This document shows, in pieces, positions 1 through 26,400 of a stretch of 64,000 bases of DNA. Made by a program: the position numbers and the translations under genes. Below the pieces are notes generated by a model. It worked only from the letters and a program-made list of their open reading frames with translations, had not been told where the DNA came from and searched no databases. Position 1 is the first letter of the stretch; each line of letters begins with the position of its first letter. Origin of the DNA: Aduncisulcus paluster (lineage: Eukaryota); the NCBI GenBank assembly GCA_024181965.1, contig BQXS01012745.1, forward strand, positions 1-64,000, in the 5' to 3' direction.

Positions 1-6
1 AATAGC

Positions 7-3000: not shown

Positions 3001-5880
3001 AGGAGATAAGATCACCCTAAATCCGAGGCAAGTGAAGAGAGTGAACCAAAACGGGTAGTCTTCAAATACATTAAGAGCACGAGGAAGTCCAATCTCTCCA
3101 CGAGAGGCATCAGATTTGGATAACGGTTTGTACGAGAAGAGCCGTTTGTTCTTCCATGAGAACATATTGGGAAGATCAGTGTTTGCAGGGGGTTTAAAGC
3201 TTGATGGAACACACGTTTCAGCAGTTGGAAGATAATTCTCCTTGATAAGACGACGGTGAGTCATGTGATGACTAAGAGACATTGAGGAGGCAGAGGGATC
3301 TTCAAGAAGACGGTCAACAATACTCAGCTTGGCTCCTTGCTTCTCCTGTTTCCGATGAACCTTGGCTTGGTTCTTCTCATATTTCTTCTTCTCTTTATCG
3401 GCCATATCATCCTTGGCAGCCTGTTGGAGCTTCAAACGCTCAGTCTCAACCTTTTTCTTCTCCTTGAGAGCCAATATCCTCTTCCTCCCTTCTTCTTTAA
3501 CCTTCTCTCTCACCTTGTCAACTCCTTCGGCACCTCGTTCACAACGATTCCCACTGACATAGACTTTACCATTACTGAAACGGCTCTCAGTTAATAAACA
3601 CTTGTTCCCACACCCACAACACCTGGAGGTTGAAGTTGTCCAGGTTAACGCTGAGATCTTGGATAGACCAAACATGGATGAAGGAGTGTTCTTCTCTTTG
3701 GCGATACGAGCACGCAATTCTTCACAGAGGACAGCGCTCTCATCTTCACCGTCAGCAATGGCAGAACGAATAGTATCCTCATACATCAGTTTCTTCTCAT
3801 TCAGCTCTTCAATTCGTCTTTGGCGCCCAATCAAAGCACATCCGAAGGCACCCATGAGACCAGCAATATCAGGGCGCACAACATTGACACCCACAAGCTG
3901 CTCAAACGCACGGAGAACACACTCATTAAGAAATGTCCCACCCTGACACACAATTTTATCACCCAAGGAACGAACATCACGGACCCTAATAACCTTATAA
4001 AGAGCATTCTTAATAACACTTATGGCAATTCCAGCACTGATCTCACTGACTGTAGCGCCTTCTTTCTGGCTCTGTTTCACACGACTATTCATAAAAATCG
4101 TACATCTACTCCCAAGATCGACAGGCCCAGGAGCAAGCAACCCTAACTTTGCAAATTCTTTCACATCAAGTCCAAGAGTTGAGGAAAATTGGGAGATAAA
4201 TGATCCACAGCCGCTAGAACAACTCTCGTTAAGGATTACATTAGTAATAGGCCGAGAAAGAGAGGAATTAATACTTGTTGGCTTCTTTTCAGATTCAAGA
4301 TCACTTCCCGTCTGTCGTTTCTCTTCCTTCCCTTCATCTTCCTCTTCTCCTTCTCCTCGAGATTCAGAAATTAGTCCTCTTCTCTTGCGGCGTGGAAGAA
4401 TGGAAGGAGTATCAGATCCAGCAATGTCCTCAATGTCAACGGAATCAAAGGAACCGGTAGAAGCTATAACAGACGGTTTAAGAGGTTTCTCTTGTTTTTG
4501 GACATCAGTCTTGGTCACTTTTAGCTCATCTTTCTCAACGGAAATACACTTGATGTCGATTCCTCCAATGTCCAGAACAAATTCGACACCGGGCATAAAG
4601 AAATCGGCCGCAGTTGTATGAGCAACCGTCTCTACAACCCCATAATCACACTCTAGAGCACTCTTAACCAGACGTTCTCCATATCCTGTCACACAACATG
4701 AACTGACAATAACAGAACGAGTGTGAAGAGACTGGTGAACATGAAGTTCAGTATAGAATCTCGCAAGAGCATCCATTGTTGATTTTAACGGACTTCCACC
4801 GTTGGAACCGTAATGATTCCACACTATACGACATTCCTCGTCAATGACAGCAACTTTGGTTGTTGTAGATCCAGCGTCAATTCCAATGAACAAACGAATA
4901 ACAGGAGCATCATCAACATCCTCAAGTCCATCCCAAAGGGAATCCAAAGAGACCCTAGACACACTATTCTCAGCATGACGGGCACGGAACTGCTTCAGAT
5001 CCTCTTCAGAGCGGAACAAGGGAGGCAACCGTGGATTCTTCTCAACCTCAGCGGTCGAAAGATCAGGCATCTCAGAGAGTTCAATAGGCTTTGCACCATT
5101 CTCTTCACATATCATTGCTGCACCCATAGAAACAAAGTACTGGGCATTGGGAGGGACCAAGGCCTGTTCTGGTGTGAGTTTTAAGGTTTCGATGAATCTA
5201 TGTCTAAGTTGTGGGAGGAAATGCAATGGGCCTCCAAGGAAGGCAATGTTACCACACACAGGTTTCCCAGCCGCGAGTCCTCCGAGGGTCTGTGATACGA
5301 CAGCCTGCATGATGGAGGCAGCAACATCACTCTTCTGCGCACCTTCGTTCAACAAAGGCTGAATGTCAGTCTTAGCGAAGACTCCACACCTAGAAGCGAT
5401 TGGATAAATTCTAGAGGCCTTTTCAGCATATTTATCAAGCCCTAAAGTATCAGTACTAAGTAGATTGGCCATGGAATCTAAAAAAGATCCAGTACCACCA
5501 GCACAAACAGCATTCATCCGAGAAGCAGTTTGTATTCCATCTTTGAACCAGCTTACTTTTGCATCTTCTCCTCCCAATTCAATAGCAACGTCCGTAGTCG
5601 GAAGAAAAGTTTCGATAGCGGCACCACAGGCAACTACCTCTTGAACATACGGGAGATTCAAGAGAGCAGCGATTCGTTGCCCACCAGATCCGGTGACGGC
5701 ACCAACTAATTTTCTATCCTTTAAAATTGGCGAAGCTTCACAAAAAATTCGTTCGATGGTCGAATTGACGTCGCTCAAATGCCTTTCATACTTTTTAAAT
5801 ACCAATCGGTTTTCATCAAAGCAGACAAGCTTAACAGTCGTAGATCCAACATCAATACCAATGTGTAAAGGAGCTAACAT
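7..5880 (-). CDS. Fused CoA-substrate-specific enzyme activase / 2-hydroxyacyl-CoA dehydratase-type protein (two BadF/BadG/BcrA/BcrD ASKHA ATPase domains + DUF2229 + HgdA/B-like C-terminal region), bacterial type
   Basis: First ATPase module: GIDVGSTTVK, ELGGEDAK, MNAVCAGGTGSFLD, IASRCGVFAK. Second module: GIDAGSTTTK, DIGGIDIK, NESCSSGCGSF, LGSRCTIFMNS. Then CCGCGNKC, GNRCE, GLPRALN, CYPAKL, SFGCGVD, KIDEMSNLGAVRIRVRSL, ACYPA, GACRASNY, GEGWL and PWACLPNHVVG. The ORF-track start at 5916 is TTG; the first ATG is at 5880. No introns. Confidence 0.88.
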   Translation of the reverse strand: MLAPLHIGIDVGSTTVKLVCFDENRLVFKKYERHLSDVNSTIERIFCEASPILKDRKLVGAVTGSGGQRIAALLNLPYVQEVVACGAAIETFLPTTDVAIELGGEDAKVSWFKDGIQTASRMNAVCAGGTGSFLDSMANLLSTDTLGLDKYAEKASRIYPIASRCGVFAKTDIQPLLNEGAQKSDVAASIMQAVVSQTLGGLAAGKPVCGNIAFLGGPLHFLPQLRHRFIETLKLTPEQALVPPNAQYFVSMGAAMICEENGAKPIELSEMPDLSTAEVEKNPRLPPLFRSEEDLKQFRARHAENSVSRVSLDSLWDGLEDVDDAPVIRLFIGIDAGSTTTKVAVIDEECRIVWNHYGSNGGSPLKSTMDALARFYTELHVHQSLHTRSVIVSSCCVTGYGERLVKSALECDYGVVETVAHTTAADFFMPGVEFVLDIGGIDIKCISVEKDELKVTKTDVQKQEKPLKPSVIASTGSFDSVDIEDIAGSDTPSILPRRKRRGLISESRGEGEEEDEGKEEKRQTGSDLESEKKPTSINSSLSRPITNVILNESCSSGCGSFISQFSSTLGLDVKEFAKLGLLAPGPVDLGSRCTIFMNSRVKQSQKEGATVSEISAGIAISVIKNALYKVIRVRDVRSLGDKIVCQGGTFLNECVLRAFEQLVGVNVVRPDIAGLMGAFGCALIGRQRRIEELNEKKLMYEDTIRSAIADGEDESAVLCEELRARIAKEKNTPSSMFGLSKISALTWTTSTSRCCGCGNKCLLTESRFSNGKVYVSGNRCERGAEGVDKVREKVKEEGRKRILALKEKKKVETERLKLQQAAKDDMADKEKKKYEKNQAKVHRKQEKQGAKLSIVDRLLEDPSASSMSLSHHMTHRRLIKENYLPTAETCVPSSFKPPANTDLPNMFSWKNKRLFSYKPLSKSDASRGEIGLPRALNVFEDYPFWFTLFTCLGFRVILSPPSRRETYERGMHTISSDLVCYPAKLVHGHVLKLVDMGIKNIFYPLIPYNRECRSCGSTPSSADHAANQSVFACPIVATYPLSIQFGVKDLQNGDVKFHHPVLPLDMPNHLILRLSQELPSMCEGGISKKEIKDAVQVALLEHERWKRDLKEEGERVVEWMSQWRRRSQSGRGIVVCSRPYHIDGEINHGIPELLQGHGLVVLTDDCVAHLGPEEVVEEVVEEWTKNIGKEEKKRSKVMKKREKVLQKSMIKLEKEKKREEKKMEKEKKKELKMQKKKEKKDISGAPEDIEEEEVPAVDTRAEAIIGGGYSHDTLPLPPCLPHSDTVDQKKLHLRVRSQWTYHHRMYRAAAWAIGRDDVEVLQLVSFGCGVDAVTSDQINELVKRGKRIFTLTKIDEMSNLGAVRIRVRSLLAAVEAGEREKRQKAMERIKAGLDPIPQSLEITPFVPPKQAIFGVEDRKRTILAPQMSFPHFQFLPAVFKPFGYNLEVLDHADYKLSDIVNEGLNSVHSDACYPAILVVGQLIHAIRSGRYKPEEVALGISQTNGACRASNYLAFIKRALHDLGLLDKIPVITLSFLGIKTQPGFSITLPIIRRLLISMLAGDVLDRLRRRTRPYETEESLGESERLFAEMSEKFKEALLLKTLTKNAFNKLVDESFDKFEAISIHTHFRKPRVGIVGEILVKYEHTANNQVVAFLEKEGAEVVVPDLLDFFLYCGQHIVNGKEIFGEGGAVLLGGKLVVSYSEAFRKHYRQRLARSPLFKLYPASLPEPKPLFPSPSGHIPTHERLSNIVEISKLAEGIDPSMYGCIAGEGWLLSGEIRELLEERGCNSVIVVSPWACLPNHVVGRACMEAVKDMHPLANVTAIDYDPALSEINQISRLKLMMSTAFRLHRRQGLAANLEEAEERVREGGLRERERVCGFVLDDQCEEREKEEEEKGEDDCSIITSAHSTLPSPCASLPDSEKVSPVGSSKGSEEEESVGEEKEVQGVVALQEDSS

Positions 5881-9296: not shown

Positions 9297-11645
9297 CTAA
9301 TGACCAGTAATATTGTGTGACAACAGGAGATCAATTTCTTCAGGCTCTTCTTTCTTCCATTTTGGAAGTGTTGACCCCATTGACATAGAATTTTCACATC
9401 CAACAAGGAGAAGATTCGGGATAAATTCAATTCTTTCCAATACTGTTTTTGTTTGAGCAGTGAGACATGGAGGAACTTCAACAGGGAAAGGATCGAACAC
9501 TCCCAATACTTTACCTTCTTTTCCAGCCCTAACCCCAACAAATTCACCTCCAATCATTTTAATAATTTTTGAGAAAGCGTGGATATCTGGGTGCAAAATA
9601 TCTACAATATGTTCACCAAATTCCCGTTGTTTAAGAATATCCATGAACATTCGCACAACTCTTTCACCTAAGTTCCTAAGAAGGATGGCACGAGTATCAC
9701 CACCACTTTCACAGGCGGTTTGAGCTGCACAATGAATCATTTTACACATTTTGAACATATGAGATGTAACTCCATTCACTATATCGGATGTTCCAGTTGT
9801 ATATACATGAGGAGACTGTGCGTTCATTATCTGTGTGCAACTTGCGACAACAATATCAACCCAAGTCGTCACACAGGAGTCCATGCAAACTCTGATGTTT
9901 GAAACAGCCGTCTTTGTAAAATATTCTTGAAGAAATTCAGGTCTTACAGAATCGTTATTCGTAAGGATAGAAAGGAAAGGCCCAAGAGATGTGGCCAATT
10001 GATTGATGGTTTTAATAGAGGTCAAAAGAGTGGACGATATATTCACAAGATAGGGTTTGGTATCAGCTACATCAGCTATCCTTCCATCCACACTGGATTG
10101 TCCAGCCCCATGGCCGTCCATTGATTCTCCAGCAATCATTGGAGAAGGGAGTTTCAGAGATTCTTCAATAGACATCCATACATCCTTCACAATACGACCT
10201 ACGACCTGTTGAACATGCTGCGTCGTTTTAACGAGCATGTGGAGTCCCAATTCGTAAACTAGCTTGAAATATGGGAGGGGATGGATACAAAGGAACGAAG
10301 AGGACTTCTCATAAAAAAAAGAGCTCTTGAGACGTTCGAGAATACTCAAGCATTCCTCACAGAGACTTCGAACACACATCTCAATGCATTCGAAGCCCCC
10401 ATCAGTCGAAGAGGGCGTTGGAAGGGACGAGTGGGGCATTGCATCCTCAACTCGGCCAATAAACAAATCAAACAACAATTCACAAAGGCGTTCCTCTGAA
10501 AAGGAAGATACCAATGGAAGAAAGGTGGTTTTTCTTCTTAAACTAGGGTATAAATGACTTCTAGAAGCCTGAGAAAGTGAAATGGTGGACATTGTTGGAA
10601 TATTGATTTCATCACATCGTAAACTTTGTGAAATTAGAACAGGACGCAGAATATCATATGTTTTCGCCATTTCATTCACCTTTCCACCCAAACTCGGAGA
10701 TTGAACATGAGGTGGTCGTTTGGCACCTGCAGGAAGAATCGAAGAACTCATTCTTCTTCCTTGAAATGATAACTGAGGAGCAAGATACATTGCTATTGGC
10801 CCATCATTTCCCAAAGCATACTCAATAATCCGAGGAATATGTTGCTCAGGATGCAAAAAGGAGGCGGCAACATTTTCAAGGGTTTGTTCAAAAGCACGAA
10901 CAATAAGTTCGAGATTGAATTCACCAAACTGAATACTGATCTTTGAAATTGGAGCGGCAGATAAAAATAGATTAACAATGGTTTCTCTTTCATCCATCTG
11001 TTCGAGTAAGTTCGTTATTGGGATAAGAGTTTTGTAGAAAGAAGAATGGTTCTGATTTTTCCAAAGTTCCTCCAATTTTAACAGTAAGACTCGCTTCACT
11101 TGAGAGTATATATGCTCAATACATTTCAGCTGTAAAAATTCAATATAAACATCCCTTTCAAATAGACTATTAGGAGTGTGATGCTTTGCTTCACGTAAAA
11201 CTTCAACAGTATTCTCCAATATTGGATTTGGATGTATGTTTTTGGAAATAGAATTGAAGAACAATATGTCAGCCGGATAATTTTGAGGATAATCAAGAAT
11301 ATCAATGAAATTTTTCTCAATTTCTTCAAAGAATGCATCTGTTGAATCCCTAAGCTTCTTATTCTCGCAGAAAGCAACAATAATAGAATGTAGGTTATTG
11401 AGAACAGATTTCTCAACAGTCGCAAATTCTTTTCTTCTCATTTTGGAACTCATCGTCGAGACCTTTTCAGCCACTAAATGAACAGTTTTATGGACGCTTT
11501 CGGCGCGCTCTTGGAGTCGTGAGACCTTTTCTTTTGCGTATACTATGTTGCTTTTATATACATCCAAAGATGATAATAATCTTCTATATAATTCTTTTTT
11601 TTCTTTTTCAACAATTTCTATTCTTTCTTTTAATTTTGAACTCAT
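9297..11645 (-). CDS. Helical-rod protein, probable exocyst subunit Sec10/EXOC5-like
   Basis: 782 aa with an N-terminal coiled coil. The C-terminal LGERVVRMFMDILKQ...DIHAFSKII...NLLLV resembles the Sec10 C-terminus as I recall it. Confidence 0.5.
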   Translation of the reverse strand: MSSKLKERIEIVEKEKKELYRRLLSSLDVYKSNIVYAKEKVSRLQERAESVHKTVHLVAEKVSTMSSKMRRKEFATVEKSVLNNLHSIIVAFCENKKLRDSTDAFFEEIEKNFIDILDYPQNYPADILFFNSISKNIHPNPILENTVEVLREAKHHTPNSLFERDVYIEFLQLKCIEHIYSQVKRVLLLKLEELWKNQNHSSFYKTLIPITNLLEQMDERETIVNLFLSAAPISKISIQFGEFNLELIVRAFEQTLENVAASFLHPEQHIPRIIEYALGNDGPIAMYLAPQLSFQGRRMSSSILPAGAKRPPHVQSPSLGGKVNEMAKTYDILRPVLISQSLRCDEINIPTMSTISLSQASRSHLYPSLRRKTTFLPLVSSFSEERLCELLFDLFIGRVEDAMPHSSLPTPSSTDGGFECIEMCVRSLCEECLSILERLKSSFFYEKSSSFLCIHPLPYFKLVYELGLHMLVKTTQHVQQVVGRIVKDVWMSIEESLKLPSPMIAGESMDGHGAGQSSVDGRIADVADTKPYLVNISSTLLTSIKTINQLATSLGPFLSILTNNDSVRPEFLQEYFTKTAVSNIRVCMDSCVTTWVDIVVASCTQIMNAQSPHVYTTGTSDIVNGVTSHMFKMCKMIHCAAQTACESGGDTRAILLRNLGERVVRMFMDILKQREFGEHIVDILHPDIHAFSKIIKMIGGEFVGVRAGKEGKVLGVFDPFPVEVPPCLTAQTKTVLERIEFIPNLLLVGCENSMSMGSTLPKWKKEEPEEIDLLLSHNITGH

Positions 11646-11913
11646 AGGGGAAGATTTGATGGAAATAATAACAATACGGGGAATTCAGACAAAATAAACG
11701 ATGATCTATTAAATCTATGATGATATTTAAAAAAATAAAAATATGATATGATATTGAGGGTTGTCAAAACACACAGAATCTCAAAAATAGTTCCCTAAGA
11801 CAAATCAGTTTCTTCATTTTCGAACTTCAAATCTACTTTTATCGTGTGTGAGATAGGCAATTTGTCCACTTGGTTTTGATCACACCCATTTCAAACATAA
11901 TATTCAGTTATTG

Positions 11914-12483
11914 ATGAAATTAACTGTAATATCTGCTCTGTCTATCATTCTATCTTTTGTATTAACTGTATCTTCTATTGTTTTTAATATATTTGTTTCA
12001 AATTATGGAAAAAATAATTTAGAATGCTCAACCAGTGATGAGTGTTGCAAACAATCTCCTCATATTTCAGTATTTAGTATAGTTGGGATAATTTTTGGAG
12101 TTGTGGGATTTTGTGGATTAATATGGCATATAATATATCGCCTAAAAGCCAAAAAATTATCTCTTATCATCACTTTGATTAATATGATTTGTATTATCGG
12201 TCCTAATGTGTTTTCCTTCATTTGTTTTGTTAGTGGATTTGGAATTATTGTGACAATAGCTAGTTGTCACGGTGATGAATTTGCTGATGTTGTGTTTTAT
12301 TTCATCATTGGAACTCCAATTTCATTGGCCCTCTTCATATTGACAGTATTTTTCAATCTTATGTCCTTTAATTTTGAAGTTGCTAGAAGTGAGCTTCAAT
12401 GTCATAATGTTCTGAAAGATGCTTTAAAGGATGCCATTGATGCCATCGATGCGGATGAATCATCAAGAATACAGGATAAATAG
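11914..12483 (+). CDS. Hypothetical membrane protein (about 4 TM helices)
   Basis: Four hydrophobic stretches, a Cys-containing first loop and a charged C-terminal tail. Confidence 0.7.
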   Translation: MKLTVISALSIILSFVLTVSSIVFNIFVSNYGKNNLECSTSDECCKQSPHISVFSIVGIIFGVVGFCGLIWHIIYRLKAKKLSLIITLINMICIIGPNVFSFICFVSGFGIIVTIASCHGDEFADVVFYFIIGTPISLALFILTVFFNLMSFNFEVARSELQCHNVLKDALKDAIDAIDADESSRIQDK

Positions 12484-13426: not shown

Positions 13427-14641
13427 TTAAAGGTCGGGGTTATTCCAAATTGATGAAGGTTCAAACTGATAATTTCCAGCTCCATAGATGAGTCCGCCCT
13501 TCCACATTCCAGTGAAGGAAGCACCACTGGGCCACACAATCTTCCCATTTCCCTCTTTCTTGTTATCTACGAATTCTCCTTCGTAGGTGATTCCGGCCTC
13601 ATCACAATAAATCCCGTGTCCATGTCTCTTGTCGCACATCCATTCTCCCTTATAAGAGGCTCCAGTAGAGTAAATCAACTCTCCATATCCAGTGGCCTGA
13701 TCATCTCTCCACTCTCCAGTGTAACGATCACCGTTGCCATAGGTGAGAGTACCCTGCCCATGTTTCTTCCCAGAGTCCCAGGATCCCTCGTACTTATCGC
13801 CATTTGTGTAAGTAAGAACACCTTGTCCATGAGCTTTGTCGTCCTTCCACTCACCATCGTATCTTTCACCCTCTTTGTATTCCAAGGTTCCACGGCCATT
13901 CTTCTTATCTTCAGCCCATTCTCCTTTATAGACATTTCCATTGGCAAATACATACTTGCCAACACCATGCATCTGTCCATTTCTCCATTCTCCTTCGTAA
14001 TGACCTCCATCAGCGAAGAAATAGGCTCCATTACCATGCATAACACCTTCAAACCATTCTCCATCATATTTTTCAACATGCTCCCCATTTTCACCAGCGT
14101 AAAGGACAACACCACGACCATGACGTTTATCTTCTTTCCATTCTCCTTCATACTCATCACCATCGTTATATGTGTATTTCCCAAAGCCATGCATTCTCCC
14201 ATCTTTCCAATCACCGTCGTAAACATCTCCATCACTGTATACAAGTCTACCTTTTCCACTGATACGGCCATCAACCCATTCACCTTCATAGCGATTTCCA
14301 GAAGCATATTCACTAATTCCATATCCGTGAACTCTATCATTTTGCCATTCGCCCCTATATTTAGAGCCATCAAGGTAGATATATTCACCTTTCCCATGAC
14401 GTTTACCATGGACCCAATCTCCTTCATAAATTTCTTTGTTGGGATATACAAGCTTACCTAAAAAAACATAATAGATGTAATAATGATATAGAATAAAAGA
14501 TTTTCCCAAAAAATATCGTTTTTAATTGTTAAAATAAGTGAAAAATAATTTCTAGTGTTGGCATGTCAAGAAAGAATAAAGAAAGAAAAACATACCATGA
14601 CCATGCATTTGGCCATCACTGATCTGCCCACTGTACATCAT
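13427..14641 (-). CDS. MORN1: MORN-repeat cytoskeletal protein, MORN1-type (358 aa); exons 14641-14596 and 14457-13427
   Basis: About 15 tandem YxGxWxxGxxHGxG repeats. A GTATGT...TAG intron at 14595-14458 gives the N-terminus MMYSGQISDGQMHGHGKLVYPNKE; the protein ends WNNPDL. Colinear with trypanosome MORN1 as I recall it. Confidence 0.88.
14458..14595 (-). other. Spliceosomal intron (138 nt) in MORN1
   Basis: GTATGT...TTTTAG on the minus strand; removal gives an in-frame first MORN repeat. Confidence 0.9.
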
Positions 14642-15334
14642 TTTGTTGGATGTGTATGTAGTTCGACAAAAAAATATGTTTCCAACAAAATTCTTGGAAC
14701 TGTCCTAAATGAGCGTTGGTTGTAAAAATTTCATTTTAATACGGTATCATTTTTAAAATTATAAATATTATTGCGAGAGATTTATTATATTGGTCGGTCA
14801 ACTCCTTCGAAAATGAAAATTCCATGTTTTGAGAGCGTCTTTCTAATTTTGACAGGAAAACATATTTATAGTATTGTAATTATTACTATTATTACTGATC
14901 ACAACAAAAATATCTTATTTAGACGATATTCTCAATAGATATGCTCAGACCCGCTATTATCTGAAGTTTTTATGATGCTTGGACAAATATAAGTATTTTT
15001 GACATATAACTTGTCAAAAAAGTTACAATATCATCTCACTCCTTCATTATTGATATCATTCTGATCTTCTATGGGATCGAGTTCAACTCATAGATCAAGT
15101 TGATCTGTCAAGGCGGTTTCGTATTTCCATTAATTTGAGTTTCAATGATGTGTTTATACATACTATTGCATATATAACATATGATATTTATGCTCCTTTC
15201 ATTGTTTTTGAATGTATTAAGACGTATATCAAAGACAATGGAGGTTTTTGGATAATATTTGATTTTATAATGCAAATTCCAAGCCCTTTTCGATCTGTAT
15301 TAATGTGTTGCATAGAAAAAATAACCATTTTTTC

Positions 15335-15409
15335 GTTGTCATAGTCAAATGGGAAAGACGTCGTGTGCTGAGCCATGCGGAAACCCAGGTTCGAGTCCTG
15401 GTGGTAACA
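15335..15409 (+). tRNA. tRNA-like gene of undetermined identity (aberrant 20-nt anticodon arm)
   Basis: 7-bp acceptor stem GTTGTCA/TGGTAAC plus discriminator A. D-arm GTC-AAATGGGAAA-GAC. T-arm CCAGG-TTCGAGT-CCTGG. A-box TAGTCAAATGG, B-box GGTTCGAGTCC, and T6 terminator at 15412-15417. Confidence 0.8.
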
Positions 15410-15768
15410 TATTTTTTAATATAAATAGATATCACTTCCCTTTATGTAGTTTGAGATGATTTATATTTATTTATTTATATTTAAACTCGATTTACAACGA
15501 TTTGTTCCATTTACTATACTGAATGCTTTTGTTAAAGGAGTTTCTGTTTGTTTCAATTTGTAATGAATAGAGAGTTTAAATGAACCAATAAATACAAATA
15601 TAATTATTTTTTACATAATAGAGAAATTAATACCTTATATTAATTCTTAATATTGCATCAATTGAAGCTTTAATAAAAAAAAGCAGAAAAAGGACAAAAC
15701 GTATGCCAGTGGCTTCAAAGATAAAAATCAAGACGACACATTTTTTTGATCTATATAACCTCTCAATA

Positions 15769-16446
15769 TCATGAAGAAGATATCTTCTGATCTTCTTCTC
15801 CAATAACAAGTTCAATTTGTTGAACATTCCACCGAACACTTCCCAAGGTGATCATATCAGTAATAATCAAAATATATTCGGCCCAAGCAAGTATATTTTG
15901 CTCACTTACTTTTGTTCTATCAGTGAATTCGTTAATGCAGAACGTAATTATCATACCAATACAGATAATAGGAAGACACGCGATTCTCCCATAATGAACC
16001 AATTTGGGTTTTTCAAGCTTCATATCAGTGAAAATTATAATAGCAAGAATGATGAGACTTGAAGCAAAGTGAGTATAAGCACCAATAATGTGTATGTTTG
16101 GATAATCTGCATAATAAAAGATTGTGAGCGTAGAACACCCAAGAATATAAATTGAACTGGCACAAAACACAATAATTTTTAGCGCTTTAGATGTAAGAGG
16201 GTATTCATCACGATGGGTAGCATGAAAATACCAAAAATACAGACAAAACAAGCTTAATACAAGTGTCACAAACATATTTGTGCTAAACAGTGATATGGAA
16301 AGACAAAAGTCCGGTGAAGCAGTCCCAGATAAGGTTGGAAACACTGATGTTTCAAAATGAACCATAAACATGATAATGGAAATGACATCAAGAGTAAGAT
16401 TCCAAATAGGAAGAGCTAATGGAATCCATGAAATTGGAATAAGCAT
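15769..16446 (-). CDS. Frag1/DRAM/Sfk1-family membrane protein
   Basis: 225 aa, about 6 TM helices, with HIIGAYTHF and AWAEYILI matching the family's HxxGA and AxxEW/Y motifs. Confidence 0.65.
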   Translation of the reverse strand: MLIPISWIPLALPIWNLTLDVISIIMFMVHFETSVFPTLSGTASPDFCLSISLFSTNMFVTLVLSLFCLYFWYFHATHRDEYPLTSKALKIIVFCASSIYILGCSTLTIFYYADYPNIHIIGAYTHFASSLIILAIIIFTDMKLEKPKLVHYGRIACLPIICIGMIITFCINEFTDRTKVSEQNILAWAEYILIITDMITLGSVRWNVQQIELVIGEEDQKISSS

Positions 16447-16642: not shown

Positions 16643-19600
16643 ATGTTACGATCAAGTTATCGAAACATTTCATCAATAGAACCACTTTATTCAGGAGGTC
16701 CGGCTGTCTTTTCTCCTGATAAAGATTTATTATATTGTATTCAAGATGAATCCGTTAATATCATTGAAACAGCATCATCAACAATTGTAAAACATATTGA
16801 TTTGAAGGCTAATTTGCTTACAGCATTATCAATCCATCCCAAAGGTCATATATTCGCTGCTGCTGCCAATTCATTAATGTTGTTTGTTGTTAATGCACTT
16901 TCTGGTGAAGTAATCAAGCAATTTCGTGCCCATGATGCTCCTATCGTTGATATAACCTTTCATCCCACCTTGGATTTGTTTGCTACAGCAAGTGCCGACA
17001 GAACTGTACGGGTATTCGATTTCAATGGTCAATGTAAGTCGTATCTTCGTGGACACAAATCGATGGTTACTGGAGTTGCATTTAATCCTGTCCCTGAGGT
17101 TCCCCATCTTCTCTCCTATTCATCTGATAGTTCCCTTATTGTCTGGGATATCACAACCAATCGAATGATTCGTTCTTTTGATGAACACTTGGGAGGAATT
17201 AACTCAATATCAGTCATTCAATGTGATGGTGGTTGTATTATTGCGAGTGGATCCATGGATAAGTCAGTTTGCATATATATATACGATGAAGCTTCTGGAG
17301 AATATCATACTCATATCAGCAGGCCTATTTATAGAACAGCTGATTGTATTGTCATCAGGAAACGGATTGAATTGATAGAAAATAGTATATANNNNNNNNN
17401 NNNNNNNNNNNCCTGAGGTTCCCCATCTTCTCTCCTATTCATCTGATAGTTCCCTTATTGTCTGGGATATCACAACCAATCGAATGATTCGTTCTTTTGA
17501 TGAACACTTGGGAGGAATTAACTCAATATCAGTCATTCAATGTGATGGTGGTTGTATTATTGCGAGTGGATCCATGGATAAGTCAGTTTGCATATATATA
17601 TACGATGAAGCTTCTGGAGAATATCATACTCATATCAGCAGGCCTATTTATAGAACAGCTGATTGTATTGTCATCAGGAAACGGATTGAATTGATAGAAA
17701 ATAGTATATATTCCCAAGAACCACTCACTGTGAAAATATCCAATCCTGATGATACAATGACCAAAAAGAAGAAAAGGGGAAAGAAGAAAGTTATTTCAAA
17801 ACATGATAAACTCATGTCCATCAAGGAAAACATATTGCCGTTGTATGAAGTTGTTATAAGTTCCTCCGAAACCTGTGAGGTCTTCTGTGTGTCCGCCCTC
17901 ACTCTTAAGCCTTTTCCCGACTCAAAAGACGATATTATTAGATTTCCTGGAGCTCCTCTTCGTTCAGATTCCTTTATTTTCCCTGAACATTCTCTTCCTA
18001 CTGGGTCTTCTCAGGACAATCTTGAGGTGATAACCGATCTTCAGGTAGAAGAGGAAAGTGCTGAGAGTAGTGAAGACCAACAACAGAGCGAAGCAGACAA
18101 AAACAGTGTCGCTGTTCGTTATATGCGAAGTTTCAACGATGGTCTCATTTCCTTCTGTCTTTCTGACCTAACCATCCAGCTTATTACCTTGCATCCATTC
18201 CAGGTTGTGTGGAGTGTTTGTGGAGACATTGGTGAAATTAACGGGTGTGTTGTACTTTCTGATATGTCACATGAGAAAAGGAGTGAAGAGGAGGAGGAGG
18301 AGGAGGAAGGACTGAGTGACCTCCACGGTAGTCAAGGCACACTTGAATCAGATATTGCAAATCCTGACCAAGGCGATGTTCAAAGTGATTACTATTCTGT
18401 TAGTTCTGATTGTTGCCCTCGCTTTGTTGCTGTTTCCACTTTTTCCCCCTTTCTAAGAATAATTCATATCCCGTCACGCCAATGTCTCTCCATAGCTCGC
18501 TCAATACGAAGTGTTCTTTGTGTCTCTACTGATGGTGAGTATATCGCATGTGGAAGTGAGGATGGAAAGGTCTTCGTGTTCTCTGCTCTTGCCTTTAACT
18601 TGTCAGAGGATGAATTAGTTCTCAAAGGAATGGAGAAAAGAGGAGAATCACTCAGATCCATTCGTTCTTCCAGTAGGAAACAGATAAAAGAAGAAGAAGA
18701 GGAGGAAGAAGAGGAAGAAGAAGAGGAGGAAGAGGAAGATGAAGAGGAAGAGGAGGAAGAAGATATGGACAGCATTGATGATATACTTATGGAGGAAAGT
18801 CTTAATCCTATTTTCTCGAATGCCCCTCTTCATGCCCTCACACCCCAATGTCTGGCTGTGTGTGAAGGTATAGATTCCCCTGTGACGTGTGTTTCTCTTC
18901 ACAAGGGAATATTGTTGGCTGGGGATGATGATGGAAACATTTCAGAGTTTGACTTGAAAGATATTGCCAAAGAGCGGAATAGAAAGCTGAAAGAAACACA
19001 TTCATGTCCATCTGAAGTTGTTATTGGGCCCAAATACAAACACTCTGCACATAAAAAGCCAGTTATGACCATTGAAATGTCAAAATCCCTTGCCATGTAC
19101 GTTTCTGGGGGAATGGATAGGGTAGTCCGGGTTTGGGGAAGATTGGGAAGAAAAGAGAAGGAAGATAGAGAGAAAAAGGAACGTGACGGCGGATCTAAGG
19201 CCTTGTCGGATGCCTTTTCCGCCTTTGTTGCCCTGAAACAGTCTGAGGAAAAAGAAGGAGATATCTCTAGTGATGGTAAGAAAAAGAGCAAGAAAATCGC
19301 CTTATCGTCAACGAATATTCAGTTATTATCACTTTCCTTAGCCAAACCGGTCAGCTCACTGGCCCTTTCGCCTTGTTCCCCCGCTCTTTCTGTCTGTGTC
19401 AAAAATATGGTGTCTATTTTGAGTCTTTCAAGTTCAAAGGTGAAGTCCAAGAAGAAAATACAATCAAAAGGACACAGAAAAGATGGGAAAGGTTCTGAAC
19501 CAGCCACTGTTTCTGCAGGGAAGGTCTTGAATCGCCTTCAAGGTTGTGTGAGTGCCACAGGCTGTGTTTCGTATATTAACAATGGAAATGGTGTTGTTTG

Positions 19601-20243
19601 TGCATCCTCCGGTGGTTCTCTGCACCTATGGGACACCTTGAGTGGAGAGATGACTGTCTCGATCGATGCCCACGATGATCGCATCCAAGCACTCTCTGTC
19701 TGTGGGGACGGTGATGTGTTGATGACATCATGTGTCGATGGATCTATCAAGATCTGGAAAGACGATTCCGAGGACAAGCGAAGGGAAGAGGAAGAGAAGA
19801 AAGAACAAGATCTCAAACATCGCCAAGAACTCATGAACGCATGCAAAACAGGACAATGGCTGAGAGCTATCAGGCTTTGCGTGCATCTAAATCATACAAA
19901 ACAACTTCGTGATGTTTGTGAAAGAATTATACAACTTGGGAGAGAAAAGAGTGATGTGGTATTCAGTTCTGTCTTTGAAAGGTTGAATATAAAGGATGTA
20001 AGGAAGGTAATAAGTATATCTGTATCATGGTGTGGTCTCTCGAGGTTCATGTTTATCACAATGAGAGTATTTAGGGCCATTTTACAGGAGTGGACTGTGG
20101 ATGAGATCGTCGATGGAAGTGACGCAGAACTTAGGGGAAAAGTGGAAACTTTATTCATGTACAGTCAGAGATATTATAATAGAATGTCAGAACTATGTGA
20201 AAGAATGCATATAGTTGACTATTTGGAGGCTGGTTTGAAATGA
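16643..20243 (+). CDS. UTP13: WD40-repeat U3 snoRNP protein Utp13/TBL3-like; one gene of about 1093 aa, split in the ORF track by an N-gap with a duplicated flank
   Basis: N-terminal IEPLYSGG, many WD40 repeats (AHDAPIVDITFHP, SADRTVRVFD, DGSIKIWKD) and a helical C-terminal Utp13-like domain. Collapsing the 319-nt gap/overlap restores a single frame. Confidence 0.78.
17093..17710. repeat. Assembly gap (N 17392-17411) with duplicated flanks
   Basis: 17093-17391 equals 17412-17710. Confidence 0.92.
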
Positions 20244-20456: not shown

Positions 20457-23400
20457 ATGGATTCTATTCCGAAAAATGACACTTTTATTGTCATTTTAGC
20501 GTCTTGTGAAGAATTCAGCGCCGACCGACATGGATGGTTCGATAGTATTGGCTTTGAAAGCAAATCAATTGTTAAACAATGCATTAATGATATCATATTC
20601 TTCAAATATGGGGGTAAAAGATCCGGAGAGCAAAGTATTGACGAATGGTCTCTCCTCGTCTCCAACAAGTTTGAAACTTATTGTCCAGAACATTCTTTGT
20701 TTAAAATATGGTGTTATGATGGTCATAGTTTAGAATTGGGGAGTTTTCTCTCCTTGCCATCTTTGTCAATTTCCCCGCAGCGCTTAAAAACACTACTGTT
20801 ATTCGAAAATATCAAAACTTTCCCTAAAAAAAATCCAAAAATATGGTATGGGTATAAAAATAGTTCAAAATGCAAAGAAGTTCAACGTTTTTTATCAGAA
20901 CCATTGAAATGTACTGCAAACAGTTTTGACTACAGAATGTGCAGATCTGGGCCAAAAAATGATTTTTCTGAGTTCAAATCTATTATCAAACAATTTAAAT
21001 GTCAAGCAAAGGAGGGGATAGAGAAAGGAGAGCAATATTTGGTTGCTTTTCGAGGAGATTCTCTCGTCCAATGTGCTCGTGCCATCTCAACCATATTTGC
21101 TGGTGTAAACCTGATTTCTATCCCATCTGAAGAAATCCATGAAGAAGAAGAAGAATTTGAAGACGTTTCGTCCGATTCTTCTGACCCTCGAGATTGTATG
21201 ATCAGACACAAGAAGCCAACGCAGGAGATTTCTCATTTTCCCTCAGTTTCTGTATCCCATGATCGTGGAAGAAATCGTCATAAAAAACCCGTCTTCTCAT
21301 TTTCTGAACTTGATGAATCAAAACATTTTGTCACAGAAGAAGAACTCAGCGAGCTGGAGTCAGATATTGACTGTAAAACGAAAACATCCAAATATCATCT
21401 CGAAAATTGGTCAGAATTCGATCTCAAAGATTTTTATGAATTAGGGTCTAATCAAGTTGCTAATTCTCTAAAAAAATTCCTCTATAATATGGATAAGTTC
21501 GACCCGGATCTTGCAGAAATCGAAAAAAACAAAATTGGAAATGGAATGGCCACATTCACTCTTCGAACCTCCAATAAGTGGAATCTTGAGAAAATTATGC
21601 GTGAAAATCTTTATCTTGTTCGGATTTCCTTTGATCAGTGTGTTAAACTTGCACCGATGCTTTCTTTGTTACTCAATCATAAGAAGAAACTTGATCCCGA
21701 TAGAGTCCCAAGAAAGGCTAAACGTCCTTCAAAATCAAAGAAAGATAGGAAAAGAAGAAAAAATCATGGAATTTATGAGGGAGAAAAAGAATGTTTAGAG
21801 AAGGAATATTCTAATGATTATGGAAGAGAGATGTACTATTCTACTCATGATTCGACCAATTTTGATAAGGAATCCTGTATAAATTGGGCAGTGAAGAGTT
21901 TGAAATTGTATATTACTTCGATTATACAATGTTTAGTTGAAAATTATTCGGATATCTTTGGAGTGTCAAAAAGACGCCATATTTCCATTATCCGAAATCC
22001 CAAGAAATATTTTGGATATTTCGTTGATCATCATTCGATTGAGATTCATAATGGGGATCCTTGTATCTTCATATTCGCCTGGGGTCTCTCCTCGAAACAT
22101 AAAACAATTTTCAGGGATGCTTTTTTGAAAAGAACCATTGTATACCGAAGAGAATGCTCTCCAGCTATTATTGATTTCTTGGAACATTGTGATAGTGATT
22201 CTTCAAGCAAGGTTGCAAAACCTGGGACCACTTTTTGTTCTAAACGAAATGCTTTATCCCCTGCTCTTCTCCATATCATGAAGAAATCTAATTATTGTAT
22301 TCATCTTCCTTCACACATTGCTGCTTCAAATTTCAACAAAGCATCCAATTCCCATGAGCTCAAAAAGGAACCTTTGAAAGATACCACTATCATCTTTATT
22401 ACTCATGAACAGAATCCTATATCTGTTGATCATTTGCTAAGTACGTTCAAAATCCATTCCCAAGAATTTCTGTGCAGATATCTTGAACGTCTTCCTGTTG
22501 TCCTCAGGCGGGATAGTATTCTTAAACCCCTTCAACTTAACCATATCGCTGTGGTTTCTGCAGAGACTGGCAGTGGAAAGACAGTTGGTATCCCATTAAT
22601 ATTAGCTCTCAAAATGATGAGTGAAAGTAACATCTCTCCGATTCAAGCATCAAGCCCACTTTTTCAAGGTTCAATTGGTGCTACACCTATATTTGATAAC
22701 AAATATGGATGTATTTTGGTGAGTCAGCCAAGAGCATTTTCGGCCCGTTTAATTGCTGAATTTGTCCAATCTCTCATTTTCGACACTCATATTAAGGTAG
22801 AATGTTGCTGTGATTACAAATCCCTCATTCAGGCTATCAAACAATCAAAATTAGAGGCGATGAGATATGAATATATAAGGAAACAATATATGAAACCTTC
22901 TTCTCATCCTGAAGAGGCTGTATGTGAAGAATCCTCGGCAGACTTATTGATGTTCCATCCAACCATTATCTACACGACAAATGAAGCAATATTAATGGGA
23001 ATGTCCACATCACAAAGATTCGATTATGTTCGAGCCATTATCCTTGATGAAATTCACGAGCGAACAATAAGAGCCGATTTCCTCCTCGGTATCTTGATAA
23101 ATCAGTTACAAACTACAAGAAAAGATAATCTATTTCTTATCACATGTTCAGCCACTATTCAATCGAATGATATCATTGAAATGATGTTCCAATCTCTCAG
23201 AAATGACTCAACAAAACTTGCTAAAGTGCACAATGATGATTCTGATGATACTGAAGAGTCTGATTATGGATTCTTTTGCTCTGAGATATCTATTCCTGGA
23301 ACTTTATTCCCCGTTGAAACCCGTTCTGTTGTAAAATACGATCCATCCATCTCAGATATCGTTAGAACAACCATTCATTATGCTCTTCAGTTTCTTTTGA

Positions 23401-26400
23401 AACTTTATTCTATCCGAAAAAGGGAGGTTTTACGCAATAGAAAACAGATAATAGGAGGATCTCGTACTCTTATTGACCATTGTGGGAGAAATCCAACCCA
23501 GCCAAAGTCTGATAAGGAATTGGATTCATCAGCTTTGAAAACAATTGGAAAAAACAATGACACCAATTTTGGCGGTCATGTCATGGTTTTTCTTCCATCT
23601 CCCACACACTGTTCCACTGCACAGACCCAATTCTTTCGACTCATGCATGTGGTTGAAGAAGAGGCATTGTATGTTTCTAAGAGTGAGTTAAACCATCCTC
23701 GACAACGATTCTTTGTCATGATGAATCGGTATGCCAACTTAAATGAAATAGAAGCTCTTCAATTACTTAATGCATTCAGAATCGTATATTCACCAATTTA
23801 TGCCACTTCTTCTGCTTTCGAATGGGGGAACATTATTCGTTCTACTCCTGTTTTATCCAACCGTGAGAAGAAATCACTCGATAAATCTTTCTCAAAGAAA
23901 TCAATATCTTCTCATATACCTGATAATGAATCATTTGCCCTTGGACTCGTTCCTCTTTCTATCCATGAGTATTCCCCTCTAAGTGAACACCTATATATTT
24001 GTGAAGATACGGGAGAACACATTAAAGTTATATTCACAACAAATTTTGCAGAGACATCCATCACCGTTGATGGTGTATCTTGTGTGATTGATGGGGGAAT
24101 CATGAGCATTCCACTTTATGATATCATTTCACACACAAATTCACTAATATTTGCTCCTGTTTCGGCTTCTTCAAGAATTCAAAGAAAGGGAAGAGCTGGA
24201 AGAACTTGCAAAGGGGAATGTATCACACTTGAATGGAAAAGACTTGAAACAAAGGGAATATTTGAACAGATTGATGATAAAAAAGAACAATCCTACATGA
24301 TATCTTCCCCACAGATACTAAGACTTGATTTATCAACTCCTATGCTTCAGTTAATGGGAATTGGAATTGATATTAATTCTATTCCACTTCTTACTAAGCC
24401 CAGTGGTGATCAATTGGAGAAAACAGCCTTTGAACTTCAGCGTTTAGGAGCAGTATCAGGCCCAATTAATCTCAAACACCAGGCTTTTCGAGATCTTAAG
24501 TTGACTGAAAATGGAAATACTCTTTCAAAGCTTCCATTGAGTTCTTTTNNNNNNNNNNNNNNNNNNNNGAAAAGACTTGAAACAAAGGGAATATTTGAAC
24601 AGATTGATGATAAAAAAGAACAATCCTACATGATATCTTCCCCACAGATACTAAGACTTGATTTATCAACTCCTATGCTTCAGTTAATGGGAATTGGAAT
24701 TGATATTAATTCTATTCCACTTCTTACTAAGCCCAGTGGTGATCAATTGGAGAAAACAGCCTTTGAACTTCAGCGTTTAGGAGCAGTATCAGGCCCAATT
24801 AATCTCAAACACCAGGCTTTTCGAGATCTTAAGTTGACTGAAAATGGAAATACTCTTTCAAAGCTTCCATTGAGTTCTTTTGTTGGAATGGCCTTTATCA
24901 AAACAAGAGAGTATGTTTTCAGTTCATTTTATGATTCTATTCAATCATTGACACACTTTAAAACGGATCCTTATTGTGGCTTTAATCAAGAGAAATTACA
25001 AAATATCGCCGAATTGTATTTATCTTGTATGTGTGTTTATTTAGAGTGGGGAAATGAGTTATATTCCAGTATTGCAAATACTAAAAACGAAGAAATATTT
25101 CGTGCATATTCGAAGTTTTTAGATAAATCGAGTGATATCGTATCTTTTGTACACATATTCATAACGTGGTTATCTGCTTCATGTTCACCTCAATTCGCAA
25201 CTTCAAATGGACTCAATCAGAATATGTGTGTCGCCGCGAAAGAAACTGTTGAAAACATTCTTCAAGTCTTTTCTAAATCTATTGATCTTCCAATTCAAGG
25301 AGGAGAATATTCCTCATTAATTGCTCAAAATATTGGTTTCCATCTTGTTCAAATCCTGTTGGATTGTCTAGGTGATCAAAAACACTCGCACATTGGGTAT
25401 CTATGTGACATTCGTGATGGATCGAATGGAATTGTTGATCTTTATTATAAAGTTAAGAATTCAGATGACTCATCTTCGATTTACAGATACAATCGGCGTG
25501 GAATGTCTAAATCAGATATTTTGGCAATTCCTTCGAAAGTATTTTTCATGGAAAAAATTATGACTTCATCATATGGTTCAATTTCCAAGAGAACGGATAA
25601 TATGATAAGTATTTGCGCAGGTCTTGACTCAGAAAACCCTTCAAATCTTGTCCGTCTATTTAGTTTAATTTCACACGGTTCAACTGTGTCCATTTCCCGA
25701 TTTGTTCCAAGAATCGGTGTTTTTGAATTAATATCCGACTTTATTCAGCAAATTGACCCGGCTTTTGAGAGTTTTATCTTTTGCAACAGTGATAATGATG
25801 GTGCTGAGTTGGAACCACCAGATGAATTGATGCCAATTCCGGATTTGAAAATCGAAGATGAGAATAATCGAATTAAATTCATTGATTTACATAGTTTAAT
25901 TGCTTATATTTCTCCAAAACAAGAACAAGCAATCAAAACTCATGGATCCCAACTTCTTTCACTTATTAATGCTGCTTGCTCACGAATCATTATTCCAAAC
26001 TCACCACATCGGAACCAGGCCCTTGTAGTTGGGGAAGCCTGTAAAATTCTGCATTTACACTTGTGCAAGGGGGATTATCCACTTGATCATAAGAGAAAGA
26101 GAGCATTTGCTGAGGTTCAAGTTGCTGACATAATCTCTCGTGGAATTACCGATTTCTCTGACTGTGCTTTTGTTGTTGGTGGATGCATGAATGGATCAAT
26201 TCTAAGAAGCGTTGATGCAAAAACCATGGATTCATTAAAAATTAGAGGAATTAAAGAAATAGAAGTCGATTTATTATGTGCAAATTCAAAAAGTGAAGGT
26301 ATGGTGCATCAAATTGGATTTTCTTTGAATTTTTCGTTTAATTATGCTGGAACGAGGAGTTTTATTGTTGAAACAACTTCTGAAAAGGCCGATTTGATTA

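What the first reader, a model, noticed from the sequence alone, without database searches (positions are those of the whole stretch)
15335..15417. tRNA-like Pol III gene with an over-long anticodon arm and no readable anticodon
Seen: the acceptor stem, D-arm, T-arm, A and B boxes and T6 terminator are all intact. Between G26 and the 4-nt variable loop AAAC lie 20 nt instead of 17: TCGTGTG-CTGAGC-CATGCGG. This folds as a 7-bp stem (3 G-U) with a 6-nt loop, or a 6-bp stem with the 8-nt loop GCTGAGCC. No register gives a 5-bp stem with a 7-nt loop. Three extra nt is too short for a tRNA intron. CT-GAG would imply Leu and TGA would imply Ser, but both normally have long variable arms. Fully paired stems argue against random decay. 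Inference: a non-decoding tRNA-like RNA (amino-acid donor, decoy or structural RNA), an edited tRNA, or a frameshift/recoding tRNA.
Basis: partly seen in the sequence, partly recalled or inferred. Interest (0 to 1): 0.7.

Follow-up and report, generated by a model that had tools for sequence, protein, structure and literature searches.

The report
Odd tRNA-like gene, probably disabled
A lone tRNA-shaped gene in a protist's nuclear DNA has an anticodon arm three bases too long to read any codon in the normal way, and it is most likely a recently disabled tRNA gene, though a working RNA with another job is not excluded.

Summary
Window 15335-15409 (+) is a 75-nt tRNA-like gene: ARAGORN finds it and Rfam tRNA scores 43.2 bits, E 2.9e-8. 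Acceptor, D and T arms are intact, the B box is exact, and a T6 run follows. The anticodon arm has 20 nt instead of 17 and folds as a 7-bp stem (3 G-U) with a 6-nt loop.

ARAGORN's 'Ser(gct)' is a forced parse, 7.3 kcal/mol worse, with about zero ensemble probability. No removal of extra bases restores a normal arm with both U33 and a purine at 37. The bases are identical in contigs of two libraries of one sample, so an assembly indel is unlikely.

No relative was found: two metagenome pattern scans and one viral scan gave 0 hits, and two bacterial hits were chance matches in DNA where ARAGORN finds no tRNA. No whole genome is held, so parent copies, the anticodon set and expression could not be checked.

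Best reading (about 0.55): a recently disabled tRNA gene that can probably still be transcribed by Pol III. Rivals are a working non-decoding tRNA-like RNA or tDNA element (about 0.25) and a tiny 3-nt intron (about 0.05). Interest is modest.

The parts
15335..15409 (+). tRNA-like gene, 75 nt, 52% G+C inside a spacer of 27% G+C
   Evidence: ARAGORN; Rfam RF00005 43.2 bits, E 2.9e-8; G+C values
15335..15341 (+). acceptor stem, 5' strand GTTGTCA; pairs with 15402-15408, including two adjacent G-U pairs (4.69 and 5.68)
   Evidence: folds
15344..15359 (+). D arm: 3-bp stem GTC/GAC and the loop AAATGGGAAA, with A14, G18, G19 and A21; covers the A-box region
15361..15380 (+). over-long anticodon arm, 20 nt: TCGTGTG / CTGAGC / CATGCGG; 7-bp stem (3 G-U) with a 6-nt loop
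   Evidence: -16.1 kcal/mol; pair probabilities 0.24-0.41; no canonical register
15381..15384 (+). 4-nt variable loop AAAC (class I type)
15385..15401 (+). T arm CCAGG-TTCGAGT-CCTGG; holds an exact B box at 15388-15398
15402..15409 (+). acceptor stem 3' strand TGGTAAC, then discriminator A
15412..15417 (+). T6 run, Pol III terminator-like, 3 nt behind the gene
   Evidence: sequence read; its role as a terminator is inferred from established knowledge of Pol III
15328..15333 (+). second T6 run, 2 nt upstream of the gene; meaning unknown
   Evidence: sequence read

Best explanation
This is a nuclear tRNA gene whose anticodon arm has been remodelled so that it can no longer present a normal anticodon. 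It is most likely a young, disabled copy (a tRNA pseudogene of undetermined isotype).

The internal Pol III promoter (A-box region and an exact B box) and the T6 terminator are intact. A tRNA-sized transcript is therefore probably still made and end-processed. With a 7-bp stem and 6-nt loop (or 6 bp and 8 nt), and no register that has U33 plus a purine at 37, it should not decode on the ribosome. It would be idle or removed by tRNA surveillance.

Shown here: the anatomy, the lack of any canonical register, and the correctness of the bases. Inferred: transcription, non-function and youth.
For: 1. The body is tRNA-like, but the anticodon arm has 20 nt instead of 17.
2. No register restores a decoder. 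0 of 47 single contiguous 2- or 3-nt deletions give 5 pairs with both U33 and R37. All 35 distinct arms with 5 pairs and U33 that arise by removing any three bases have C at position 37.
3. The stems are weak, as in a decaying gene: 5 G-U among 22 stem pairs, MFE only -16.1 kcal/mol, z +0.58, and 135 of 200 shuffles fold as well. Arm pair probabilities are only 0.24-0.41.
4. The Rfam score clears the threshold only when filters are lax.
5. tRNA pseudogenes, including ones of undetermined isoacceptor class, are a regular part of eukaryotic genomes (passages of PMC2888827).
6. No relative keeping this arm was found in any collection searched.
Against: 1. All checked invariant positions outside the anticodon loop are intact: U8, A14, G18, G19, A21, G53, T54, T55, C56, A58 and C61 (read).
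2. None of the 22 stem pairs is broken.
3. The gene keeps 52% G+C in a 27% G+C spacer. Decay, if any, is therefore very recent, or the RNA is still under selection.
4. At least two mutational steps (or one complex one) hit the arm while nothing else was damaged. On my rough estimate this has about a 0.2 chance for one extra neutral event.
5. All five G-U pairs keep pairing, which fits selection on structure if they are derived.
6. No intact parent copy could be looked for, because no genome is held.
Confidence: 0.55

Rival explanations
1. It is a working, non-decoding element. One version is a Pol III tRNA-like RNA with a rod-like anticodon arm, acting as a decoy, a regulator or an amino-acid donor outside the ribosome. 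The other version is a tDNA kept as a TFIIIC/Pol III site between two genes.
For: The tRNA body, an exact B box and the T6 run are intact. There are 22 of 22 stem pairs with no mismatch, and the arm is fully paired. The gene forms a G+C island of 52% against 27%. More than one step separates the arm from any canonical arm, yet nothing else is damaged. Discriminator A and a G4.U69 pair are present; from recall only, human AlaRS is said to mischarge tRNAs with G4:U69. My search did not retrieve that paper.
Against: There is no evidence of expression, charging or conservation. 0 relatives turned up in two metagenome scans and one viral scan, and the prokaryote-genome scan gave only 2 chance hits. 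The fold is no more stable than shuffles. A pure TFIIIC-site role would not need paired acceptor and anticodon stems. The prior for a new class of tRNA-like RNA resting on one locus is low.
Confidence: 0.25
2. It is a decoding tRNA after processing. A 3-nt insert GCC (15372-15374) at the canonical 37/38 intron site would be removed. That leaves a 5-bp stem and the 7-nt loop TGCTGAA, with anticodon CUG (Gln).
For: Deleting GCC at gene positions 38-40 gives 5 of 5 stem pairs and a purine at 37, at exactly the canonical intron site. 3-nt tRNA introns are spliced in the G. theta nucleomorph (passages of PMC4090602). The 4-nt variable loop is of class I type.
Against: The resulting loop has G33 instead of the near-universal U33. 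ARAGORN with introns of 1-30 nt finds nothing. In the predicted fold the proposed 3' cut lies inside a helix, not in a bulge. The known 3-nt introns are in a nucleomorph, and those named in the passages lie in the T arm, not in a nuclear anticodon loop.
Confidence: 0.05
3. It is a decoder with an abnormal loop used for recoding: an 8-nt-loop frameshift-type tRNA, or a 6-nt-loop tRNA reading CUY as GAG.
For: The 6-bp/8-nt alternative costs only 2.6 kcal/mol more than the MFE fold. Loop letters C-T-GAG place a U before GAG.
Against: In every U33 register position 37 is C, not a purine. The 8-nt loop GCTGAGCC has no U33 followed by four bases and a purine. There is no long variable arm for Leu. 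No recoding signal was looked for or seen.
Confidence: 0.04
4. It is an assembly or sequencing indel error in an ordinary tRNA gene.
For: The assembly is a draft: a run of 20 N lies 2 kb away.
Against: Contigs of two libraries agree with the window with 0 other letters and 0 gaps across the gene. These are X1 record 1 (depth 1247) and X2 record 3 (991 nt, depth 96.6). Both come from one sample, and X1 may be the source of the window. Also, no single indel restores a canonical arm.
Confidence: 0.03

Closest known systems
tRNA pseudogenes and tDNAs of undetermined isoacceptor class in eukaryotic nuclear genomes (survey: PMC2888827, passages read)
   Same: A tRNA-shaped Pol III unit whose anticodon cannot be assigned. 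It is a single locus with no known product.
   Different: The damage is confined to the anticodon arm. Every other stem and every checked invariant base is intact, and the arm is fully paired rather than broken.
tRNAs with elongated (6-bp) anticodon stems: tRNA-Sec, tRNA-Pyl, mammalian mt-tRNA-Ser(UCN) (PMC7609411, passages read)
   Same: The anticodon stem is longer than 5 bp in an otherwise L-shape-compatible body.
   Different: Those keep a 7-nt loop with a readable anticodon. They also compensate elsewhere, with a 3-nt variable loop and one connector base, or a 9/4 or 8/5 acceptor/T arrangement with a long variable arm. Here the loop is 6 or 8 nt, the connectors are normal and the variable loop has 4 nt.
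Nucleomorph tRNA genes with 3-nt introns (Guillardia theta; Kawach et al. 2005 as described in PMC4090602, passages read)
   Same: Three surplus bases in a tRNA gene. Removing GCC at the 37/38 site would give a 5/7/5 arm.
   Different: This is a nuclear gene of a metamonad, not a nucleomorph. The trimmed loop would still have G33, and splicing was not tested.
Frameshift-suppressor and other 8-nt-loop tRNAs (recalled; an '8-nt anticodon loop' in yeast mitochondrial tRNA appears only in the search listing)
   Same: An 8-nt loop is possible with a 6-bp stem.
   Different: There is no U33 followed by a 4-base anticodon and a purine. The stem is also extended, which those tRNAs lack.
mascRNA / MEN-beta tRNA-like small RNA (Rfam RF01684)
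   Same: A tRNA-like RNA that does not decode.
   Different: It scores 13.1 bits against a gathering score of 42.5, so this gene is not a member.

Membership tests
Canonical cytosolic elongator tRNA (Rfam RF00005) | Cloverleaf with a 7-bp acceptor stem, a D arm with G18 G19, and a T arm with the T-psi-C loop | tested here: met
   Rfam scores 43.2 bits against a gathering score of 29 in the short search, but the whole-window gathering run listed nothing.
Canonical cytosolic elongator tRNA (Rfam RF00005) | 5-bp anticodon stem and 7-nt loop with U33 and a purine at 37 | tested here: not met
   The arm has 20 nt. 0 of 47 single deletions restore a canonical arm, and all 35 U33 arms have C37. ARAGORN's 7-nt-loop parse has a C.C mismatch and no nucleotide 26, scores -8.8 against -16.1 kcal/mol, and has pair probability 0.0.
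Class II tRNA (Ser, Leu), as ARAGORN's label Ser(gct) and the loop letters GAG/TGA would imply | Long variable arm of 10 nt or more | tested here: not met
   The variable loop is AAAC, 4 nt. Even ARAGORN's parse gives only 8 unpaired nt.
[quoted passage not shown] | 7-nt loop with a readable anticodon, plus compensating features (3-nt variable loop and a single connector base, or a 9/4 or 8/5 acceptor/T arrangement with a long variable arm) | tested here: not met
   A 6-bp stem leaves an 8-nt loop. There are two connector bases (T8, A9), a 4-nt variable loop and a 7/5 acceptor/T arrangement. The family features are taken from PMC7609411.
Intron-containing pre-tRNA | Removing the insert at 37/38 leaves a canonical loop, and the insert is recognised by an intron-aware tRNA finder | tested here: not met
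   Removing GCC gives R37 but G33. ARAGORN -i1,30 finds nothing. Actual splicing is not testable here.
Frameshift-suppressor tRNA (8-nt loop) | U33, then a four-base anticodon, then a purine | tested here: not met
   The loop GCTGAGCC has no such register.
tRNA pseudogene | An intact parent or isoacceptor copy elsewhere in the genome | not testable with these tools
   No whole genome is held, and this is the only tRNA-like gene in the window.
tRNA pseudogene | No mature, CCA-tailed product | not testable with these tools
   No run on record as RNA holds the stretch, and contigs cannot show RNA ends.
tRNA pseudogene | Loss of a feature needed for decoding | tested here: met
   No canonical anticodon arm in any register.

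The most novel reading that the evidence does not exclude
This is a conserved, Pol III-made tRNA-like RNA of a free-living metamonad. Its anticodon arm has been turned into a closed 7-bp rod, so it is kept off the ribosome. It remains chargeable through its acceptor end (discriminator A and a G4.U69 pair) and serves as an amino-acid donor, a synthetase or TFIIIC decoy, or a regulator. No such class is described in protist nuclei.
Probability: 0.12. Interest if true: 0.7.

Novelty: new member of a known kind. Interest (0 to 1): 0.27.

Why it matters
If it is a disabled tRNA gene, it is ordinary genome turnover. Its main use is as a warning that ARAGORN's 'Ser(gct)' label here is wrong.

If the RNA proves to be made, stable and conserved, it would be a rare nuclear example of a tRNA body converted to a non-decoding role. 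If the three bases are spliced, it would be the first 3-nt tRNA intron I know of outside nucleomorphs. One tRNA-seq experiment and a whole-genome tRNA census would decide between these readings.

Tried and rejected
- Relatives by DNA pattern. Two patterns kept the loop CTGAGC with free stem letters, one joined to the 3' half and one to the D arm. Metagenome contigs gave 0 and 0 matches and viral contigs gave 0. Genome contigs gave 2 matches, both in bacterial DNA where ARAGORN finds no tRNA, so I take them as chance. These collections hold few or no protist nuclear genomes, so the blanks say little.
- Whole genome: none is held. No search for a parent copy and no anticodon census was possible.
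- Expression: no RNA holder is listed. X2 is only guessed to be RNA. Its 991-nt contig spans the whole spacer, and contigs cannot show ends or strand. I draw nothing on expression from it.
- Earlier notes of this scan: 0 look-alikes by sequence, by relatives or nearby. A word search gave one unrelated Naegleria tRNA note.
- Palindrome-scar idea. Earlier notes on this genome suggested the long arm might be a templated inverted-copy insertion. The arm is not a perfect palindrome: only GCTGAGC, with 3-nt arms, is perfect (read by eye). In this window, odd perfect palindromes with arms of 6 or more number 66, against 73 +/- 50 in first-order Markov simulations. That shows no excess, but the control is noisy.
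- C/D snoRNA next to the tRNA: snoZ196 scores 20.3 bits against a gathering score of 55, E 1.2. Rejected.
- Bacterial-type promoter and terminator scan of the spacer: at chance level and not relevant to Pol III.
- Isotype by comparison with other eukaryotic tRNAs: no eukaryotic tRNA set is on hand. Resemblances I recalled (Gln, His, Ala) were not tested and are not used.
- Literature: the draft-genome announcement of the organism named by earlier notes (PMC9933649, whole text) does not discuss tRNA genes. A search for 'Aduncisulcus' with 'genome' and 'tRNA' gave 1 unrelated paper. Searches for 3-nt tRNA introns and for long anticodon stems gave the two reviews cited. The search for G4:U69 mischarging did not retrieve the paper I recall.
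- I first read the gap between the two WD40/Utp13 reading frames as an intron. It is a run of 20 N.

Full report
**What is there.** Window 15335-15409 (+) holds a 75-nt tRNA-like gene. ARAGORN reports it as the only tRNA in 64 kb. Rfam's tRNA model scores 43.2 bits against a gathering score of 29, E 2.9e-8, when 251 nt around it are searched. The whole-window run at gathering threshold listed nothing, which I put down to the speed filters.

The gene has these parts:
- a 7-bp acceptor stem with two adjacent G-U pairs (4.69 and 5.68) and discriminator A;
- a 3-bp D stem and a D loop with A14, G18, G19 and A21;
- G26;
- a 4-nt variable loop AAAC;
- a perfect T arm.

The B box GGTTCGAGTCC is the only exact match in the window. 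A T6 run lies 3 nt behind the gene (15412-15417) and another lies 2 nt in front (15328-15333). The gene is 52% G+C in a spacer of 27% G+C.

**The odd arm.** Between G26 and AAAC lie 20 nt (15361-15380) instead of 17. The minimum-free-energy fold is a cloverleaf with a 7-bp anticodon stem (three G-U pairs) and the 6-nt loop CTGAGC, at -16.1 kcal/mol. The 6-bp/8-nt form scores -13.5 and the 5-bp/10-nt form -10.9.

ARAGORN's label Ser(gct) rests on a forced parse. The parse has no nucleotide 26, a C.C mismatch, only two Watson-Crick pairs and an 8-nt variable region. It scores -8.8 kcal/mol and its pairs have probability 0.0 in the ensemble.

The structure as a whole is weak. The z-score is +0.58, 135 of 200 shuffles fold at least as well, and arm pair probabilities are 0.24-0.41.

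**Can the arm be read after trimming?**
- I removed every contiguous 3-nt block (4-nt variable loop) or 2-nt block (5-nt variable loop) from gene positions 26-50. 0 of 47 products have five stem pairs with both U33 and a purine at 37.
- I then removed any three bases, contiguous or not. This gives 35 distinct arms with five pairs and U33, and all 35 have C at position 37.
- The only trimmed forms with a full stem and a purine at 37 have G33 and anticodon CTG. One of them removes GCC exactly at the canonical 37/38 intron site.
- ARAGORN told to look for introns of 1-30 nt finds nothing.

The arm is therefore not a normal arm plus one small insertion. At least two steps, or one complex step, separate it from any canonical arm.

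**Are the bases right?** Two public runs of one sample hold the stretch. In X1, which may be the source of the window, an 18,864-nt contig at depth 1247 covers the stretch laid (14600-16400). In X2 a 991-nt contig at depth 96.6 covers 14777-15767. Both agree with the window with 0 other letters and 0 gaps. This is not support from an independent sample, but an indel error is unlikely. No single indel would restore a normal arm in any case.

**Context.** The flanking genes are eukaryotic:
- a MORN-repeat protein (13427-14509, -);
- a Frag1/DRAM/Sfk1-family protein (15769-16446, -);
- a WD40/Utp13 protein (16643-20243, +);
- a 2639-aa DEAD/DEAH-box helicase with an IBR domain (20457-28376, +).

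Earlier notes of this scan name the genome Aduncisulcus paluster, a free-living fornicate metamonad. I did not verify this. The window's G+C of about 35-46% agrees with the 39.1% given in that organism's genome announcement, whose text says nothing on tRNA genes (PMC9933649, whole text). No whole genome is held for the window.

**Relatives.** Two patterns kept the loop and one conserved flank with free stem letters. They gave:
- 0 and 0 matches in metagenome contigs;
- 0 matches in viral contigs;
- 2 matches in prokaryote genomes, both in DNA where ARAGORN finds no tRNA, so I take them as chance.

The scan's own notes hold no look-alike. These collections hardly cover protist nuclei, so conservation remains untested rather than disproved.

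**Weighing the readings.**

*For a disabled gene.* No codon-reading register exists. The stems are G-U-rich and weak. tRNA pseudogenes of undetermined class are common in eukaryotes (PMC2888827, passages).

*Against simple decay.* All 22 stem pairs are kept, all checked invariant bases outside the anticodon loop are intact, and the gene is a G+C island. Any inactivation must be young, or the RNA is still selected.

*My rough estimates (inference, not tool results).* The two extra pairs that lengthen the stem have about a 0.14 chance. One further neutral hit landing in the loop rather than elsewhere has about a 0.2 chance. These are suggestive but not compelling.

*Probabilities I assign.*
- about 0.55 on a young pseudogene that Pol III can probably still transcribe;
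- about 0.25 on a working non-decoding tRNA-like RNA or tDNA element;
- about 0.05 on a spliced 3-nt insert giving Gln(CUG) with an abnormal G33;
- about 0.04 on an abnormal-loop recoding tRNA;
- about 0.03 on an assembly error;
- the rest on readings I have not thought of.

**Comparison with known things.**
- Long anticodon stems occur in tRNA-Sec, tRNA-Pyl and mt-tRNA-Ser(UCN). These keep 7-nt loops and compensate elsewhere (PMC7609411, passages). This gene does neither.
- 3-nt tRNA introns are spliced in the Guillardia theta nucleomorph (PMC4090602, passages).
- mascRNA is not matched: 13.1 bits against a gathering score of 42.5.
- That eukaryotic AlaRS can charge tRNAs with a G4:U69 pair is my recollection only. 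My search did not retrieve the paper.

**Verdict.** The functional interpretations are untested. The most economical reading is a recently disabled tRNA gene, so interest is modest until a genome-wide tRNA census and tRNA-seq are done.

Noticed in passing
window 17393-17412: A run of 20 N (a scaffold gap) splits a WD40/Utp13-type gene into two reading frames (16643-17416 and 17484-20243). It can be mistaken for a short intron.
   Followed up: partly
window 20457-28376 (+): One uninterrupted 2639-aa reading frame combines DEAD/DEAH helicase, Helicase_C and HA2 domains with a C-terminal IBR (half-RING) domain. It is a very large helicase-ubiquitin-ligase-type protein.
   Followed up: no
window 15335-15409: The Rfam run at gathering threshold on the whole window reported no family at all. 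The same tRNA scores 43.2 bits, above the gathering score of 29, when only 251 nt are searched. The fast filters can miss this kind of gene.
   Followed up: yes
window 9297-11645 (-) and 11911-12483 (+): Reading frames of 782 aa and 190 aa with no Pfam family at E 0.001 or better.
   Followed up: no
window 15092-15106 and 15775-15788: A perfect 15-nt odd palindrome AGATCAAGTTGATCT lies in the spacer. A perfect 14-nt even palindrome AGAAGATATCTTCT lies at the end of the Frag1-family gene. Earlier notes on this genome describe many such palindromes. In this window their count shows no excess over a noisy Markov control.
   Followed up: partly
window 1-4000 versus the rest: G+C is 45.7% in the first 4 kb against about 35-42% elsewhere.
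   Followed up: no
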